A stretch of DNA of 38,754 nucleotides from Nanobdellota archaeon (GTDB lineage: Archaea > Nanobdellota > Nanobdellia > Woesearchaeales > GW2011-AR9), in the NCBI GenBank assembly GCA_018824365.1, contig JAHJGQ010000081.1, positions 1-38,754 on the forward strand. Direction: 5' to 3'. Positions 1,793 to 4,642 of the stretch are shown piece by piece. The notes beneath the pieces were generated by a model that was not told the DNA's origin, did no database searches, and saw nothing but the letters and a program-made list of their open reading frames with translations. The translations under genes and the position numbers were made by a program. Positions within the stretch are counted from its first letter, which is position 1. Each line of letters opens with the position of its first letter.

Positions 1793-1897
1793 TGCACCGG
1801 CCGGGACCTTCGCAGACACGAAGAGAGTAGTAAACATAAACAATGTAGGAACACAGTTACTGTCTCTATCTTCTCCTCAACAGTCTATTCGAACCCG
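1793..1897 (-). tRNA. Isolated tRNA-Gly-like 3' fragment (positions 50-73) with an 81-nt BHB intron at 59/60
   Basis: Minus strand CGGGTTCGAA[intron 1887-1807]TCCCGGCCGGTGCA; the exons are identical to the 3' end of the full tRNA-Gly. BHB: GGG TTCG AA^T ... CGAA GG^T CCC. No 5' half adjacent. Confidence 0.8.
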
Positions 1898-1925
1898 ATA
1901 GGTTAAGTATCATATGTTTAACATC

Positions 1926-1940
1926 TTTATAAAAATTTTG
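1926..1940 (-). promoter_or_regulatory. Putative BRE/TATA promoter upstream of the tRNA 3' fragment
   Basis: Minus strand CAAAATT-TTTATAAA closely matches the rps13 promoter CAAAATC-TTTATAAA. Spacing to the fragment is similar to that of the full tRNA promoter. Confidence 0.5.
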
Positions 1941-2183
1941 TAAGTAGAAATACTCTTTTTAGAGAACATGTTTGTTGTTTCTTACACCACTCACCCACTG
2001 GACAAGTCCGGGTAGAGTTTATATATTAGCAAATTTACAGGATATTAAGAAAAAGAGGTTACACATAACAGCAATAAAATTCTTTTGACAAAGTAAAGAA
2101 GAAATTTAAACAGTGGTGCTTGGTCGCCTCTTTCTCTTGAAAACCCCGGGTTTTAGAATAATGCAAACTTGGAGGCGATAAGG

Positions 2184-2972
2184 ATGAATAAGAAAAGATT
2201 AAACAAAAGTGAACTTAAGCTTATTGGTACGTTAATTAAAAAAAATTACTCACTAAATGAAATTTCCAAAATATTAGGGAGGAGCAAAACTACAATATAC
2301 TATCATTTTAGAAAAATAAAAGGAAGATATGTTAAACCAGTAACTTTGATATCTGGTGATGAAGAATTAATTGGCGAGTTTATAGGCCTGTTTGCTGGTG
2401 ATGGCTCTTTCTACAAAATGCCTAATTACAAATACAATATTCGTTTACATTTTAATTCTACTGAAGCTAATTATGTTGATAATCTTATTCGAAATGTATT
2501 AATTAAGCTATTTGGCAAAAAACCAATGATGTTTAAACAAGAAAATAGGATAAATTTATGTTATTATTCTAAGAATATTTATGAGTTTGTTAAGGATTAT
2601 CTATGTTGGGATTTAAATGAACCTAAAACCTATTCTGTTAGGCTAAAGAAAGAGGATTATTCAAGTGCTTTTATGGTGGGTTTTATTAGAGGATCATTGG
2701 ATAGCGATGGGTATTTGTCTTCTAAAAAAGTCAGTTTTGCAACTGTTTCTCCAGGATTGAAAGAAAGTATTATAAGATGTTTAGATAGTTTAGATTTATC
2801 ATACAGTGTACGATTATACAAAGAAAAAAGAGAAAATCGTAGAGATATTTATCATGTTAATATTCTTAGAAAGGATTTCAACAAATTTTATCAAATTATT
2901 AAGCCAAGAAACATAAAAGGACTGAATGCACCGGCCGGGATTCGAATATCCGAACGTCCAGTCCAATTTTGA
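2184..2972 (+). CDS. Free-standing LAGLIDADG homing endonuclease with N-terminal HTH
   Basis: Two LAGLIDADG motifs (FIGLFAGDG, FIRGSLDSDG) and an HTH (SLNEISKILGRSKTTIYYH). SD GGAGG at 2171-2175 precedes ATG 2184. The 3' end overlaps tRNA-Gly antisense. Confidence 0.88.
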   Translation: MNKKRLNKSELKLIGTLIKKNYSLNEISKILGRSKTTIYYHFRKIKGRYVKPVTLISGDEELIGEFIGLFAGDGSFYKMPNYKYNIRLHFNSTEANYVDNLIRNVLIKLFGKKPMMFKQENRINLCYYSKNIYEFVKDYLCWDLNEPKTYSVRLKKEDYSSAFMVGFIRGSLDSDGYLSSKKVSFATVSPGLKESIIRCLDSLDLSYSVRLYKEKRENRRDIYHVNILRKDFNKFYQIIKPRNIKGLNAPAGIRISERPVQF

Positions 2973-3058
2973 CGTTTCCCGGATGACCGGCTTGGAAGGC
3001 CGGGATTCTTTACGGCGTGATAGGAAATTCTAACACGTAGCCATTAAACTACCGGTGC
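2927..3058 (-). tRNA. tRNA-Gly(TCC) with two non-canonical BHB introns (D-loop 20a/21, 29 nt; T-arm 53/54, 31 nt)
   Basis: The spliced 72-nt sequence GCACCGGTAGTTTAATGGCTAGAATCCCGGCCTTCCAAGCCGGTCATCCGGGTTCGAATCCCGGCCGGTGCA forms a full cloverleaf. Introns 3010-3038 (central helix ATGG/CCGT) and 2947-2977 (TCCG/CGGA). TTTATAAA lies 25 nt upstream. Confidence 0.93.
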
Positions 3059-3252
3059 ATAAAATAAGAAAATCGCACTTCTCTTTATAAAATTTCCTTT
3101 CTTGTTAAATAGATTCATCAAATAAACTTCTCAAATCTACGCTTTACCTAACTATTTCTAACTTAATTTATCTTCAATAAGACTTAAATACCAAATGATA
3201 GTAATTTTCTATCACAAAAAAGCATAATGCTTTGATTTTTTGGAGATAACTT

Positions 3253-3981
3253 ATGGTAAATTGTTCAGAGCTGATAATGAAAAGAAAAGAACTAGAGGAT
3301 TTGCTGGACAGATTAAGCCAAGACGAAACATTCACTTTATTAGATAAAAGTATTGAAATTAGAATATATGATTTAATGATTAACGCTAGAATAAAGTATA
3401 ATCAAGCAATGAATGAAGATTTAGATAATATAATTAAAGGCCTATTAGAAGTACCGAGTGATAAAATTGATAATCTTTCTGTTGGGTTCAGTGCTAAATC
3501 TACTCTTCTAAATTGGAAGGAAAAATATGGTCATGCACCAGCTTATATCTTTGTCTTGAACTTTGATCCAAATAATCCTCAACATAAAGAGCATAGTTTT
3601 GGTGCAATGTCTGGAAGATCTTTCCGCCCTTGCATTAATAGGAATATCAATGATCAAGATATAATTGAAGATATTGAAAAGATAGCTTATGAAGATAATG
3701 CAGTTATTATAGATAAAAAAGGATTAATTCTAGCAACAAATATACAGCTTGTTGATGTAAATCCTTCAGCAATACTTGGTGAATTCTCTAAAAATAGTGA
3801 TGATCATAAGAAGTTTGGTTTTGTTCATGAAGTGCATTCCAGACATTTTTCTTCTTTAGGAGCTTCTTATCATATTCCTGGTTCAGTAGTTTACACACTA
3901 GGGGAAGCTGGTTATATAAGGAGATTTGAAAAAGGTAAAATAACCTTCTCTACCGTCGAGCAAGAGATTAGGGCTTTGTAA
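3253..3981 (+). CDS. Diadenylate cyclase (DisA_N/DAC)-like domain protein with variant motifs
   Basis: EDNAVIID..G.I (cf. DGA motif), HSRHFSSLGAS (cf. GTRHRAA) and C-terminal TLGEAGYIRRFEKGK (cf. vSEe.G.i..f..G). Confidence 0.72.
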   Translation: MVNCSELIMKRKELEDLLDRLSQDETFTLLDKSIEIRIYDLMINARIKYNQAMNEDLDNIIKGLLEVPSDKIDNLSVGFSAKSTLLNWKEKYGHAPAYIFVLNFDPNNPQHKEHSFGAMSGRSFRPCINRNINDQDIIEDIEKIAYEDNAVIIDKKGLILATNIQLVDVNPSAILGEFSKNSDDHKKFGFVHEVHSRHFSSLGASYHIPGSVVYTLGEAGYIRRFEKGKITFSTVEQEIRAL

Positions 3982-4129: not shown

Positions 4130-4642
4130 ATGGTAGAACTTACTGGACAAAATTGTAATTTTTGTGGAGAAAATAAACTTACTTTACGTGAAGAGGAGAT
4201 AGAGATCCCTTACTTCGGGCGGGTTTTTGTCTTTTCTATGGAATGTACAGCTTGTGGTTATAGAAAGTCTGATGTAGAACCAGCAGAAAGCAAAGAACCA
4301 TGTAAATATACATTAGAAGTAAGTTCAGAAGATGATCTTAACATTAAGATAATCAAGTCAGGAGAAGCTATACTTAAAATACCGCACATCATAACTGTTG
4401 AACCAGGACCTGCTGCAAATGGTTATGTTACTAATGTTGAAGGTCTTCTTGAGCGGATTAAAAATAGGATCACCTCTTCAGTTGAAGGGGAAGAAGATCC
4501 TGCTGCAAAGAAAAAGGCTAAAAATCTTATTAAGAAATTAAATAAAGTTTTAGTTGGCAGAGAACCATTAAAGATAATTATTGAAGATCCTACCGGTCAT
4601 AGTGCAATCGTTTCTGATAAAGCGCAAAAGAGTAAACTTTAG
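4130..4642 (+). CDS. ZPR1 zinc finger domain protein (archaeal type)
   Basis: CxxC...IPYFG...CxxCGYR, PGP..GYVTNVEGLL and IIEDPTGHSAI motifs. Confidence 0.93.
   Translation: MVELTGQNCNFCGENKLTLREEEIEIPYFGRVFVFSMECTACGYRKSDVEPAESKEPCKYTLEVSSEDDLNIKIIKSGEAILKIPHIITVEPGPAANGYVTNVEGLLERIKNRITSSVEGEEDPAAKKKAKNLIKKLNKVLVGREPLKIIIEDPTGHSAIVSDKAQKSKL

What the first reader, a model, noticed from the sequence alone, without database searches (positions are those of the whole stretch)
1793..3058. tRNA-Gly / LAGLIDADG / duplicated tRNA 3' end: candidate tRNA-3'-end-replacing homing element
Seen: on the minus strand a complete tRNA-Gly(TCC) is followed by ~1 kb carrying an antisense HTH-LAGLIDADG gene, then by a second copy of tRNA positions 50-73. 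The two 3' ends have identical exons but different BHB introns (31 nt at 53/54; 81 nt at 59/60). There is no integrase, so a provirus att duplication is not supported. Known: free-standing homing endonucleases can invade a gene by supplying a new 3' end and displacing the old one, and insertions in the target give self-immunity. Inference: the nuclease cuts the T-arm region near position 49/50 and copies in a cassette with an intron-protected 3' end. This would link homing endonucleases to the spread of non-canonical tRNA introns in DPANN archaea.
Basis: partly seen in the sequence, partly recalled or inferred. Interest (0 to 1): 0.88.

Follow-up and report, generated by a model that had tools for sequence, protein, structure and literature searches.

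The report
Homing nuclease cassette replacing tRNA-Gly end
A selfish nuclease gene sits tail-to-tail with the only tRNA-Gly(UCC) gene of a tiny groundwater archaeon, beside a left-over copy of the tRNA's old 3' end, and its relatives in other genomes also sit beside tRNA genes, which suggests one way that odd tRNA introns may spread.

Summary
On the minus strand lie a tRNA-Gly(UCC) gene (3058-2927; a 29-nt D-loop intron and a 31-nt intron at 53/54), an antisense HTH-LAGLIDADG gene (2184-2972, I-DmoI-like fold) and a second copy of tRNA positions 50-73 (1897-1793) split by an 81-nt bulge-helix-bulge insert at 59/60.

In 35 of 36 evaluable homologous loci a tRNA gene abuts the nuclease gene's 3' end, and 27 of these are tRNA-Gly. 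Nucleases next to UCC and to GCC genes form separate clades. Across relatives, 18 of 20 nuclease-linked UCC genes carry the 53/54 intron, against 5 of 18 nuclease-free ones. Seven loci keep a second tRNA 3'-end piece beyond the nuclease, with different boundaries; none was found at nuclease-free loci.

I read it as a tRNA-targeting homing cassette coupled to an intron that splits its likely target, analogous to "collaborative homing". Cleavage, immunity and splicing are untested. Complications: two nuclease-linked genes lack the intron, the old fragment has its own tRNA-type promoter, and no empty allele of this strain was seen. Also found: the intron loop pairs with the tRNA 3' trailer and the two covary.

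The parts
2927..3058 (-). tRNA-Gly(UCC) gene. Exons are 3058-3039, 3009-2978 and 2946-2927. It is the only UCC copy found in the genome.
   Evidence: Read. In-silico removal of the two inserts gives ARAGORN tRNA-Gly(tcc). The only Gly(TCC) anticodon arm in tRNA context in the genome is here.
3010..3038 (-). 29-nt BHB-type intron in the D loop (after position 20).
   Evidence: Central helix ATGG/CCGT is 4/4 paired and the inner helix has 4 bp. After removal the D arm equals the intron-less D arm of relative L066 (by eye).
2947..2977 (-). 31-nt BHB-type intron at 53/54, between the T stem and the T loop.
   Evidence: H helix TCCG/CGGA and inner helix AACGTC/GACGTT. In 19 loci 97.4% of cells are paired, 9 of 10 pairs have changes on both sides, and 0 of 500 shuffles reach this.
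2919..2924 (-). 3' trailer segment CAGTCC, complementary to intron loop GGACTG (2964-2959).
   Evidence: Loop-trailer complementarity covaries between loci: mean longest match 6.0 nt against 4.5 nt for mismatched locus pairs, and 0 of 5000 permutations reach it.
3082..3095 (-). BRE/TATA-like promoter of the tRNA gene (AAATTTTATAAAGA), ending about 24 nt before position 1.
   Evidence: Read. Repeat D6. The same motif stands before tRNA-Gly in relatives (by eye).
2184..2972 (+). Free-standing HTH-LAGLIDADG homing endonuclease gene (262 aa from the ATG; a TTG lies at 2169). The last ~46 nt are antisense to the tRNA 3' exon and intron.
   Evidence: Pfam. Invariant GDG and DG motifs in 6 homologues. 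AF2 model with pLDDT 78.5, with the tail 243-262 below 50. Best fold match is I-DmoI, TM 0.79 on the target.
2040..2183 (+). Conserved structured 5' leader of the nuclease mRNA, with a segment able to pair with the GGAGG ribosome-binding site.
   Evidence: RNAalifold on 6 loci gives 18 pairs, 9 with changes on both sides. The anti-SD pairing was seen by eye.
1985..2030 (-). TATA box of the nuclease gene plus a conserved upstream motif (tRNA strand TATATAAACTCTACCCGGAC-TTGTCCAGTGGGT-GAGTGG). Homology between nuclease loci ends here.
   Evidence: The motif is not nuclease-specific: at least 8 copies stand upstream of different ORFs in the own genome.
1898..1984 (-). Unique spacer. It holds a second tRNA-type promoter-like element (1924-1937) ending 27 nt before the old fragment.
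   Evidence: No homologue in the genome or the loci. TTTTATAAAG occurs only 9 times in 1.23 Mb, and two of them are in this locus.
1793..1897 (-). Displaced old 3' end of tRNA-Gly: positions 50-59 (1897-1888), an 81-nt BHB-type insert (1887-1807), and positions 60-73 (1806-1793).
   Evidence: 24 of 24 exon nt are identical to the working copy. H helix TTCG/CGAA is 4/4 paired and the outer helix is the T stem with 5 bp. Repeat D4.

Best explanation
The locus holds a selfish, tRNA-targeting homing-endonuclease cassette.

Shown:
- A free-standing, I-DmoI-like LAGLIDADG nuclease with an N-terminal HTH domain sits tail-to-tail with the genome's only tRNA-Gly(UCC) gene.
- It has its own promoter and a structured leader.
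- It belongs to a DPANN-wide family whose members sit next to tRNA gene ends, and its clades follow the tRNA isoacceptor.
- The intron has a covarying BHB, and the genome encodes a splicing-endonuclease catalytic domain.
- The genome contains no uninterrupted copy of the presumed target.

Inferred:
- The nuclease recognises the intron-less T-arm DNA of tRNA-Gly around positions 49-54 and cuts there.
- The working tRNA copy escapes because a 31-nt bulge-helix-bulge intron at 53/54 splits that site.
- The host splicing endonuclease and ligase remove the intron from the RNA, so the tRNA still works.
- Nuclease gene, trailer, 3' exon and intron travel together as one unit into sensitive alleles. 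This is "collaborative homing" with an archaeal BHB intron in place of a group I intron.
- The 105-bp piece at 1793-1897 is what is left of the allele that was hit. It keeps positions 50-73 and its own older 59/60 intron. It starts 4 nt before the 53/54 site, which fits the 4-nt 3' overhang that LAGLIDADG enzymes leave (recalled textbook knowledge).
- The piece is a decaying relic, not a working gene.
For: 1. The protein is a LAGLIDADG nuclease with intact motifs.
- Pfam LAGLIDADG_3 and HTH_38.
- G72-D73-G74 and D175-G176 are invariant in 6 homologues.
- Two alpha-beta-beta-alpha-beta-beta-alpha halves. The best PDB matches are I-DmoI chains (E 8e-10, TM 0.79 on the target).

2. The family is associated with tRNA genes.
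- Of 40 loci from public genomes, 36 can be judged at the 3' side. In 35 of these a tRNA gene abuts or overlaps the ORF end (six of them were seen by eye only).
- In 24 convergent loci the ORF end lies from 115 nt inside to 9 nt outside the tRNA 3' end.
- 27 of the tRNAs are Gly: UCC 19, GCC 6, CCC 2.

3. The nuclease tree follows the tRNA. UCC-linked genes form one clade of 20 rows (support 99/96) and GCC-linked genes form one of 6 rows (100/98).

4. The distribution at one orthologous locus is patchy.
- The ZPR1-like gene at 4130-4642 is the upstream neighbour of tRNA-Gly(UCC) in 11 other distinct loci (12 locus ids, two of them the same place), with or without the nuclease.
- 17 of 61 related genomes have a homologue. 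One at the same site (G022) has in-frame stops.

5. The intron goes with the nuclease: 18 of 20 nuclease-linked UCC genes have the 53/54 intron against 5 of 18 nuclease-free ones (Fisher p 1.6e-4, not corrected for relatedness).

6. Displaced tRNA ends recur.
- Exact direct repeats of 11 nt or more between the tRNA end and the region beyond the nuclease start occur in 9 of 39 loci, against 0 of 39 in a reversed control. Seven of the nine are tRNA 3' ends.
- By eye there are also L075 and L078.
- Boundaries and states differ: the window has 50-73 with a 59/60 intron, L076 has 54-73 with A57, L071 has 57-73, and L098 and L075 have intron-less T arms. These are therefore separate events.
- No second fragment was found at nuclease-free loci.

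7. Self-immunity is plausible.
- The 22-mer made of 11 nt on each side of 53/54 has no match with 3 or fewer mismatches in the own genome.
- 8 of 13 intron-less, nuclease-free relatives carry it with 2 or fewer mismatches.

8. The intron is a real, conserved BHB, and the genome encodes the splicing-endonuclease catalytic domain.

9. The fragment's exons are 24/24 identical although the nuclease is 62% identical or less to all sampled relatives. This suggests a recent event in this lineage.
Against: - No biochemical or expression data exist. No RNA run holds the locus, so cleavage site, immunity and splicing are all inferred.
- L084 and L086 (UCC) and L096, L099, L101 and L109 (GCC) have the nuclease but no T-arm intron. 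Their T arms differ from the window's site by 6 or more mismatches where this was tested (L084, L086).
- The L083 fragment carries a shrunken 53/54 insert, so it came from an allele that already had the intron.
- Fragment start points vary from about position 47 to 66. Only the window (50) and L076 (54) fit a cut at 49/50-53/54 directly.
- Old and new copies share lineage-specific acceptor bases in L070, L076, L080 and L098. This fits duplication within a lineage, or transfer between close kin, better than import from distant donors.
- The window's fragment has a strong tRNA-type promoter 27 nt upstream. A plain relic of a cut allele does not predict this.
- No nuclease-free allele of this strain was found in four other metagenomes.
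- A host-gene tree was unresolved, so repeated gain against ancestral presence with losses is not settled.
- Nuclease divergence (58-62%) is similar to or greater than that of the neighbouring host protein (62-81%). There is thus no sign of recent transfer among the sampled genomes.
Confidence: 0.58

Rival explanations
1. Decayed tandem copy. The lineage once had two complete tRNA-Gly(UCC) genes side by side, each with its own promoter. The downstream copy, which had a 59/60 intron, lost positions 1-49 by deletion. The nuclease gene is a free-standing selfish gene that landed between them. Its target need not be the T arm, and the 53/54 intron is unrelated to it.
For: - The fragment is preceded by a tRNA-type promoter element (AAATTTTTATAAAGA) ending 27 nt before position 50, against 24 nt before position 1 in the full gene.
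- TTTTATAAAG occurs only 9 times in the genome.
- Old and new copies share lineage-specific acceptor bases in other loci.
Against: - It needs a deletion that removes almost exactly positions 1-49.
- It does not explain why fragments of different extent recur beyond the nuclease in at least 6 other loci, nor why none was found at 18 nuclease-free loci.
- It does not explain why the intron goes with the nuclease, nor why nuclease clades follow the tRNA isoacceptor.
- No relative examined has two full tRNA-Gly(UCC) genes in tandem.
Confidence: 0.17
2. Domesticated protein. The HTH-LAGLIDADG protein is no longer a mobile nuclease but a host factor tied to tRNA-Gly genes, for example a regulator or an RNA-processing helper. 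It would be inherited vertically with occasional loss, and the fragments would be incidental.
For: - Intact ORFs persist in many lineages at 45-62% identity at the same site.
- Divergence is similar to that of a host neighbour.
- It shares a promoter-upstream motif with at least 7 unrelated genes of the same genome.
- WhiA, a LAGLIDADG-derived regulator, appears among the fold matches at rank 50.
- The intron loop pairs with the trailer, so the RNA has extra structure that a protein could use.
Against: - The acidic residues of both LAGLIDADG motifs are invariant.
- Only 17 of 61 relatives have any homologue, and 13 intron-less plus 5 intron-bearing orthologous loci do without it.
- Pseudogenes occur (G022).
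- The part of the ORF that overlaps the tRNA is predicted disordered and varies in length.
Confidence: 0.1
3. Working split or alternative 3' piece. The fragment is transcribed from its own promoter, its 81-nt intron is spliced out, and the product is used, either joined in trans to a 5' piece or as a small T-arm RNA.
For: - It has its own promoter-like element at the right distance.
- Its exons are 24/24 intact.
- It has a near-complete BHB whose outer helix is the T stem.
Against: - No other 5' acceptor strand able to pair with CCGGTGC stands in a tRNA-like context in the 96%-complete genome.
- The only other tRNA-Gly found (GCC) has a different acceptor stem.
- I found no leader that could form a BHB with the 5' part (by hand).
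- Equivalent fragments in relatives are truncated to different extents or degenerate.
- The working gene is complete in cis.
Confidence: 0.07
4. Remnant of an integrase-type integrated element. The two tRNA 3' ends would be attL and attR, as for SSV- or pNOB8-type elements, and everything but the nuclease gene would have been lost.
For: - Direct repeats of a tRNA 3' end that stop at the discriminator base are typical of such integrations (discussion of PMC3293823, read).
- Identity ends at or 1-3 nt after position 73 in all loci.
Against: - The 1.1 kb between the repeats holds only the LAGLIDADG gene and its leader.
- The flanking ORFs have no integrase domain.
- The same minimal layout recurs in at least 7 genomes.
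- The copies differ by introns, which simple att recombination does not produce without an intron-bearing attP.
Confidence: 0.05

Closest known systems
Collaborative homing of F-CphI and the psbA group I intron in cyanophage S-PM2 (Zeng, Bonocora and Shub 2009, as described in the background passages of PMC6083498)
   Same: A free-standing homing endonuclease gene lies next to an intron-containing gene. In the known case the nuclease cuts the intron-less allele at the intron insertion site, and the intron protects its own genome. Here I infer that intron and nuclease can spread together in the same way.
   Different: In the window the intron is an archaeal protein-spliced BHB intron in a tRNA, not a self-splicing group I intron in a protein gene. 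The nuclease is LAGLIDADG, not Endo VII-like. The host is a cellular genome. A displaced copy of the gene's 3' end is left behind. Cleavage and protection are not shown here.
tRNA-Thr(GGU) locus of Caldiarchaeum subterraneum (Sugahara et al. 2012, PMC3293823; abstract, Results part 1 and Discussion part 1 read)
   Same: A tRNA fragment, a 1.9-kb insertion with one 813-bp ORF directly beside the tRNA, and a new non-canonical intron at the junction. The authors propose that a mobile element brings the intron, leaves a tRNA fragment, and protects against further invasion.
   Different: The authors read the ORF as a recombinase or integrase by a machine-learning classifier and modelled att recombination. 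Here the ORF is demonstrably a LAGLIDADG nuclease. In the window the 3' end of the tRNA is duplicated, not the 5' end; relatives L028 and L030 show the 5' version. The layout recurs across many genomes. I could not test whether their ORF is also a LAGLIDADG. Their supplementary alignment (Figure S2) may bear on this and was not seen.
I-DmoI and other LAGLIDADG nucleases encoded inside archaeal rRNA BHB introns
   Same: Monomeric two-motif LAGLIDADG fold (best structural match), archaeal host, and association with BHB introns in stable-RNA genes.
   Different: Those genes lie inside the intron in sense orientation (recalled, not from a call). This one lies outside the tRNA, antisense and convergent. 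It has an extra N-terminal HTH domain and its own promoter.
Free-standing or fused homing endonuclease ORFs in fungal mitochondria that bring a duplicated 3' end of the invaded gene (for example atp6 of Allomyces). Recalled from memory, not checked in any call.
   Same: The invading unit supplies a new gene end and pushes the old end downstream as a non-functional remnant.
   Different: Those are protein-coding genes in organelles, the nuclease is often fused in frame, and no BHB intron is involved.
SSV1- and pNOB8-type integration into archaeal tRNA genes (as summarised in PMC3293823)
   Same: A direct repeat of a tRNA end flanks inserted DNA, and the tRNA gene is reconstituted.
   Different: No integrase is present. 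The element is 1.1 kb with a single nuclease gene, and the repeats differ by introns.

Membership tests
LAGLIDADG homing endonuclease (monomeric, two-motif) | Two LAGLIDADG motifs, each ending in a conserved acidic residue | tested here: met
   LIGEFIGLFAGDGSF and FMVGFIRGSLDSDGYL. G72 D73 G74 and D175 G176 are invariant in 6 homologues. Pfam LAGLIDADG_3 E 1.6e-12 with 2 stretches.
LAGLIDADG homing endonuclease (monomeric, two-motif) | Tandem alpha-beta-beta-alpha-beta-beta-alpha fold | tested here: met
   AF2 model with pLDDT 78.5. Foldseek top hits are I-DmoI chains, E 8e-10, TM 0.79 normalised to the target.
LAGLIDADG homing endonuclease (monomeric, two-motif) | Site-specific double-strand cleavage of a long target, leaving 4-nt 3' overhangs | not testable with these tools
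   Only indirect: the old fragment starts 4 nt before the 53/54 site.
LAGLIDADG homing endonuclease (monomeric, two-motif) | Optional (patchy) presence at a conserved site, with decayed copies | tested here: met
   17 of 61 relatives have a homologue. G022 has in-frame stops. The orthologous locus occurs with and without the gene.
Archaeal bulge-helix-bulge (BHB) intron | 4-bp central helix flanked by two 3-nt bulges that carry the splice sites, plus at least one flanking helix | tested here: met
   All three inserts have 4/4 central pairs at the expected register. The geometry rule was recalled and applied by script. The fragment's inner helix is offset by one G.
Archaeal bulge-helix-bulge (BHB) intron | The structure is kept by compensatory change in relatives | tested here: met
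   53/54 intron in 19 loci: 97.4% of cells paired, 9 of 10 pairs with changes on both sides, 0 of 500 shuffles as high, and 53% or less paired after sliding the partners.
Archaeal bulge-helix-bulge (BHB) intron | Removal restores a canonical tRNA | tested here: met
   ARAGORN calls tRNA-Gly(tcc) after in-silico removal of the 29-nt and 31-nt inserts and calls none before.
Archaeal bulge-helix-bulge (BHB) intron | Excision by the splicing endonuclease in vivo | not testable with these tools
   The EndA catalytic domain is present once in the genome. No RNA run holds the locus.
Collaborative homing (free-standing nuclease plus protective intron) | The nuclease gene lies outside the intron and adjacent to the intron-bearing gene | tested here: met
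   The ORF 2184-2972 is convergent with the tRNA. The intron is 31 nt and non-coding.
Collaborative homing (free-standing nuclease plus protective intron) | The nuclease cuts the intron-less allele at the intron insertion site, and the intron blocks cutting | not testable with these tools
   Indirect only: association of 18/20 against 5/18, and no intact 22-mer site in the own genome.
Collaborative homing (free-standing nuclease plus protective intron) | The intron is a self-splicing group I intron (as in the one described case) | tested here: not met
   The intron is 31 nt with BHB geometry.
Integrase-mediated integration into a tRNA gene (att duplication) | A tyrosine or serine recombinase is encoded by the inserted DNA | tested here: not met
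   The only ORF of 60 aa or more between the repeats is LAGLIDADG. The flanking ORFs have no Pfam hit.
Integrase-mediated integration into a tRNA gene (att duplication) | A direct repeat of a tRNA end flanks the insertion | tested here: met
   The 14-nt exact repeat and 24 nt of exon identity.
Split tRNA (separately transcribed 3' piece) | Own promoter | tested here: inconclusive
   A TATA-like element ends 27 nt upstream and the 10-mer is rare in the genome. There are no transcript data.
Split tRNA (separately transcribed 3' piece) | A matching 5' piece elsewhere, and a leader that pairs with its trailer | tested here: not met
   No other tRNA-like 5' acceptor partner in the genome. No complementary leader was found by hand.

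The most novel reading that the evidence does not exclude
A whole family of free-standing LAGLIDADG nucleases in DPANN archaea (211 sequence clusters at E 1e-30 or better) lives by homing into tRNA genes. Each invasion replaces one end of the tRNA gene, plants a BHB intron exactly where the nuclease would cut, and leaves a tRNA fragment behind. This would make homing nucleases a general engine for the gain of non-canonical tRNA introns and for scattered tRNA fragments, and a possible first step toward split tRNAs. It may also apply to the 'recombinase' element of Caldiarchaeum. The covarying pairing between the intron loop and the 3' trailer would then be a built-in device of the cassette that controls maturation of the hybrid pre-tRNA.
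Probability: 0.35. Interest if true: 0.9.

Novelty: new variant of a known kind. Interest (0 to 1): 0.8.

Why it matters
How non-canonical introns get into archaeal tRNA genes is an open question. [quoted passage not shown] The 2012 Caldiarchaeum study proposed a mobile element but could not name its enzyme.

This locus and its relatives offer a concrete candidate that can be tested:
- a compact nuclease gene of known enzymology;
- a defined 22-bp candidate target;
- natural intron-bearing and intron-less alleles;
- relics of invaded alleles in different stages of decay.

If the enzyme cuts the intron-less T arm and spares the 53/54 allele, this would be the first case of collaborative homing with a protein-spliced intron. 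It would also link selfish nucleases directly to tRNA gene disruption in DPANN archaea, where standard tools already miss most tRNA genes: only 8 pass the Rfam cut-off in this 96%-complete genome.

Tried and rejected
- ARAGORN and Rfam on the raw window find no tRNA. This is explained by the introns.
- Motif as transposon-like inverted repeat or nuclease-specific operator: rejected. I considered that the conserved motif upstream of the nuclease (TTGTCCAGTGGGT) plus a similar ACTGGAC in the intron loop marked such a feature. The motif has at least 8 copies upstream of unrelated ORFs in the own genome, and the intron-loop similarity is explained by the loop-trailer pairing.
- Motif as a tRNA D-arm relic: left open and unsupported.
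- Split-tRNA reading: no partner 5' piece was found.
- 4-bp CGGG as a target-site duplication: it fits the window but not the fragment boundaries of L098, L075 and L083. It is kept only as a hint.
- Host tree from the neighbouring ZPR1-like protein (12 rows): it was meant to decide between one gain and many. It had 0 starred branches of 9 and is uninformative.
- Sequencing runs: no RNA holder is listed.
- Contigs of runs X3, X4, X6 and X7: they confirm the arrangement but show no nuclease-free allele of this strain. The joints 2946>2978 (exactly the 31-nt intron) and 2954>3038 in X7 have sides of 21-25 nt at 85% likeness. They most likely come from tRNA genes of other organisms.
- Sequence search of the PDB: it gave only weak HTH hits, whereas the fold search was clear.
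- Spacer 1898-1992 and the 81-nt insert: no homologue in the genome or in the fetched loci.
- Not examined: 11 of the 44 places matched, because no locus was fetched for them. They could add tRNA-Gly loci to the counts.
- Caldiarchaeum ORF: I did not test whether it is a LAGLIDADG, because there was no route to its sequence. Supplements were not opened.
- No complex prediction was run.

Full report
WHAT IS THERE. The window is contig C93 of a 1.23-Mb genome with 32% G+C, estimated 96% complete. Public records that hold homologous loci are labelled Woesearchaeota/Nanoarchaeota, which are DPANN archaea.

On the minus strand, 3058-2927 is a tRNA-Gly(UCC) gene broken by two inserts: 29 nt in the D loop (3038-3010) and 31 nt between positions 53 and 54 (2977-2947). 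ARAGORN and Rfam miss it. After both inserts are removed by coordinates, ARAGORN calls tRNA-Gly(tcc). It is the only UCC copy I could find. The genome's other tRNA-Gly (GCC, contig C101) has a different acceptor stem.

Convergent with the tRNA, on the plus strand, is an ORF of 262 aa (ATG 2184; stop at 2970-2972). Its last 46 nt run antisense into the tRNA 3' exon and intron.

Beyond the ORF's start lie five things in order: a 150-nt leader, a TATA box with a conserved upstream motif, a unique spacer of about 90 nt, a second promoter-like element, and at 1897-1793 a second copy of tRNA positions 50-73. That copy is interrupted by 81 nt after position 59 or 60. Its 24 exon bases are identical to the working copy. 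Independent contigs from runs of four other studies are identical across all junctions, so this is not a mis-assembly.

THE PROTEIN. Pfam gives LAGLIDADG_3 (two stretches) and an N-terminal HTH_38. Six homologues keep the GDG and DG ends of both LAGLIDADG motifs. An AlphaFold model (pLDDT 78.5) shows a three-helix HTH and two alpha-beta-beta-alpha-beta-beta-alpha halves. The 20 residues encoded by the tRNA overlap are predicted disordered. The best structural matches are chains of I-DmoI, the nuclease of an archaeal rRNA intron. A profile of the six sequences finds 211 clusters at E 1e-30 or better among 1.84 billion representatives. This is therefore a sizeable family.

THE INTRONS. I applied the BHB geometry from memory: on each strand, 4 nt of central helix, then a 3-nt bulge cut after its second base, then a flanking helix. 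All three inserts have a fully paired central helix in the right register.

For the 53/54 intron I aligned 19 loci. The central and inner helices are paired in 97.4% of cells, and 9 of 10 pairs show changes on both sides. One of these pairs links an exon base of the T stem to the intron. No shuffle out of 500 reaches this, and sliding the partners drops pairing to 53% or less. The genome encodes one splicing-endonuclease catalytic domain. Passages of PMC5829648 link DPANN endonucleases that carry an extra loop with disrupted tRNA genes.

In 61 related genomes, including the window's own, 17 have a homologue at E 0.001 or better. The three closest are G009 at 62%, G052 at 61% and G022 at 50%, and G022 is broken by in-frame stops. 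All three lie in the same place: convergent with tRNA-Gly(UCC) that carries the same 53/54 intron. More distant homologues lie against other tRNA ends.

A scan of one genome per species returned 40 loci. Four are cut by a contig end at the 3' side (L085, L105, L106, L107). In 35 of the other 36 a tRNA gene abuts or overlaps the ORF's 3' end. The identifications came from three sources:
- ARAGORN found 8 of them.
- My T-arm/acceptor scan found most of the others.
- L082, L087, L094 and L096 were seen by eye only; L090 and L100 were found by the scan and read further by eye.

L106 and L108 instead have a tRNA-Ser 38 nt before the start. Twenty-seven of the 35 are tRNA-Gly: UCC 19, GCC 6 and CCC 2.

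In a maximum-likelihood tree of 38 proteins, the UCC-linked genes form one clade (20 rows, support 99/96) and the GCC-linked genes another (6 rows, 100/98).

The locus itself is orthologous. The ZPR1-like gene at 4130-4642 (Pfam) is the upstream neighbour of tRNA-Gly(UCC) in 11 other distinct loci, with and without the nuclease.

INTRON AND NUCLEASE GO TOGETHER. Among tRNA-Gly(UCC) genes found in the 61 relatives (pattern search; 30 loci parsed; 11 matched places not fetched), 9 have the 53/54 intron and 13 do not. The nuclease or its pseudogene stands beside 4 of the 9 and none of the 13.

I added the public-genome loci and removed duplicates (L074 = G052, L076 = G009). Then 18 of 20 nuclease-linked UCC genes have the intron, against 5 of 18 nuclease-free ones (Fisher p 1.6e-4; relatives are not independent). 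The exceptions are L084 and L086. Their T arms differ from the window's presumed site at 6 or more of 22 positions. Four of six GCC-linked loci also lack a T-arm intron.

DISPLACED ENDS RECUR. I searched for exact direct repeats of 11 nt or more between the tRNA-end region and the 900 nt beyond the nuclease start. Nine of 39 loci have one, against 0 of 39 in a reversed-sequence control. Seven of the nine are tRNA 3' ends: the window, L070, L071, L076, L080, L083 and L098. By eye, L075 has a degenerate T arm plus acceptor, and L078 has the last 8 nt.

The pieces differ from locus to locus:
- Window: 50-73 with a 59/60 insert.
- L076: 54-73, with A57 where the working copy has G57.
- L071: 57-73.
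- L098 (tRNA-Gly GCC) and L075: whole T arms without the 53/54 intron that their working copies carry.
- L083: a T arm with a shrunken 53/54 insert.
- L078 and L080: only the acceptor end.

An 81-nt BHB insert could hardly arise in a dead fragment. The window's event is therefore separate from the others, which means repeated invasions. No second fragment (2 or fewer mismatches in 13 nt, within about 1.5 kb) was found at nuclease-free UCC loci.

A mirror-image arrangement exists in a branch without the HTH. In L028 the nuclease gene lies directly upstream of a class II tRNA and in the same orientation, and a 16-nt copy of that tRNA's 5' end lies beyond the nuclease promoter.

SELF-IMMUNITY. 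The 22-mer made of 11 nt on each side of 53/54 has no match with 3 or fewer mismatches anywhere in the own genome. The nearest match, at 4 mismatches, is tRNA-Gly(GCC). Eight of 13 intron-less, nuclease-free relatives carry it with 2 or fewer mismatches. This fits a nuclease that can stay active without cutting its own genome while targets exist in related species. It is only a consistency check.

HOW IT MOST LIKELY WORKS. Shown:
- A LAGLIDADG nuclease family tied to tRNA gene ends.
- A conserved spliceable intron at 53/54 that goes with it.
- Recurrent displaced 3' ends.

Inferred:
- The enzyme cuts intron-less T-arm DNA near 49/50-53/54.
- The intron protects.
- The unit of intron, 3' exon, trailer and nuclease gene is copied into broken alleles.
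- The old end survives for a while downstream.

The closest described mechanism is collaborative homing of F-CphI with the psbA intron (passages of PMC6083498). The closest described anatomy is the Caldiarchaeum tRNA-Thr locus. There a 1.9-kb insertion with one 813-bp ORF, a tRNA fragment and a new junction intron were explained by an integrase model (PMC3293823). A 2026 preprint on Asgard tRNA introns found no general arrival route (passages). Literature searches for LAGLIDADG together with archaeal tRNA genes or introns listed no paper describing this arrangement among the results I looked at (15-20 titles and abstract starts per search).

WHAT DOES NOT FIT, OR IS UNEXPLAINED.
1. The window's fragment has a tRNA-type promoter element ending 27 nt upstream. 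The 10-mer TTTTATAAAG occurs 9 times in the genome, and two of them are here. This favours either a former complete second gene or an outward promoter.
2. Old and new copies share lineage-specific acceptor bases.
3. The nearest sampled nucleases are 58-62% identical, no closer than host proteins, and a host tree was unresolved.
4. The hairpin loop of the 53/54 intron is complementary to the tRNA 3' trailer, starting 0-4 nt after the discriminator base, and the two covary. Examples are GGACTG/CAGTCC here, TGAAGGGT/ACCCTTCA in L073, GAGGAGC/GCTCCTC in L075, AAGGCTA/TAGCCTT in L074, TGGGGACCT/AGGTCCCCA in L083, and GGGGTCGA/TCGACCCC in the nuclease-free L064. The mean longest match is 6.0 nt against 4.5 nt for mismatched locus pairs, and 0 of 5000 permutations reach it. 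In two loci (L072, L076, and possibly the window) the helix extends through U-G pairs only in the tRNA-sense RNA. This hints at a pre-tRNA pseudoknot, but its role is unknown.

VERDICT. This is a new variant of known kinds (free-standing homing nuclease, BHB intron, tRNA-end duplication). It bears directly on an open question.

Noticed in passing
window 2959-2964 with 2919-2924 (minus strand); the same feature in L064, L070-L078 and L083: The hairpin loop of the 53/54 intron is complementary to the tRNA 3' trailer, and the two covary between loci (0 of 5000 permutations reach the observed mean). It may be a pre-tRNA pseudoknot that couples splicing and 3' processing. Its function is unknown.
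   Followed up: partly
window 1985-2030; own genome C5:7083, C10:3759, C15:4335, C43:964, C65:10452, C86:11974, C96:7138: A conserved element of about 40 nt (TATA box, 10 nt, then ACTTGTCCAGTGGGT and nAGTGG) stands upstream of at least 8 different ORFs in this genome and upstream of nuclease genes in many relatives. By eye the ORFs include a second LAGLIDADG gene, an integrase-like N-terminus and a helicase-like N-terminus. It looks like a shared operator or regulon signal.
   Followed up: partly
window 2040-2183 (+); L070, L071, L079, L080, L084: The nuclease mRNA has a conserved structured leader (18 predicted pairs, 9 with changes on both sides). By eye it also has a segment that can pair with the GGAGG ribosome-binding site, which suggests translational control of the nuclease.
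   Followed up: partly
own genome contig C10, about 2650-2700 (minus strand), downstream of a second LAGLIDADG gene (C10 about 2880-3735): The RtcB-like RNA ligase gene is interrupted after ...MPDGH by about 31 nt that hold a hairpin and two stop codons. The reading frame then resumes with GYGFPIGGVAAFD. This is a candidate BHB intron in the mRNA of the tRNA ligase itself.
   Followed up: no
L028 (G031) 1290-2570: A nuclease gene without the HTH lies directly upstream of a class II tRNA, and a 16-nt copy of the tRNA 5' end lies beyond its promoter. Downstream there are at least four tandem copies of the tRNA's T arm plus acceptor end, each with a spacer of about 60 nt. The last copy is split by an insert in the T loop, and part of the array is masked by N.
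   Followed up: no
window 1924-1937: A second tRNA-type promoter element (AAATTTTTATAAAGA on the minus strand) ends 27 nt before the old tRNA fragment. The 10-mer TTTTATAAAG occurs only 9 times in the genome.
   Followed up: partly
whole genome G000: Only 8 tRNA genes pass the Rfam cut-off, and ARAGORN finds few, in a genome estimated 96% complete. Most tRNA genes must be heavily interrupted.
   Followed up: no
L082 and L087 (tRNA-Gly UCC beside the nuclease): These genes carry both the 53/54 intron and a second insert inside the T loop near 59/60, the position of the insert in the window's old fragment.
   Followed up: no
window 2946/2978, run X7: One contig joins 2946 to 2978 and so skips exactly the 31-nt intron. 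With a 21-nt side at 85% likeness it is most likely an intron-less tRNA-Gly of another organism in the same groundwater.
   Followed up: no
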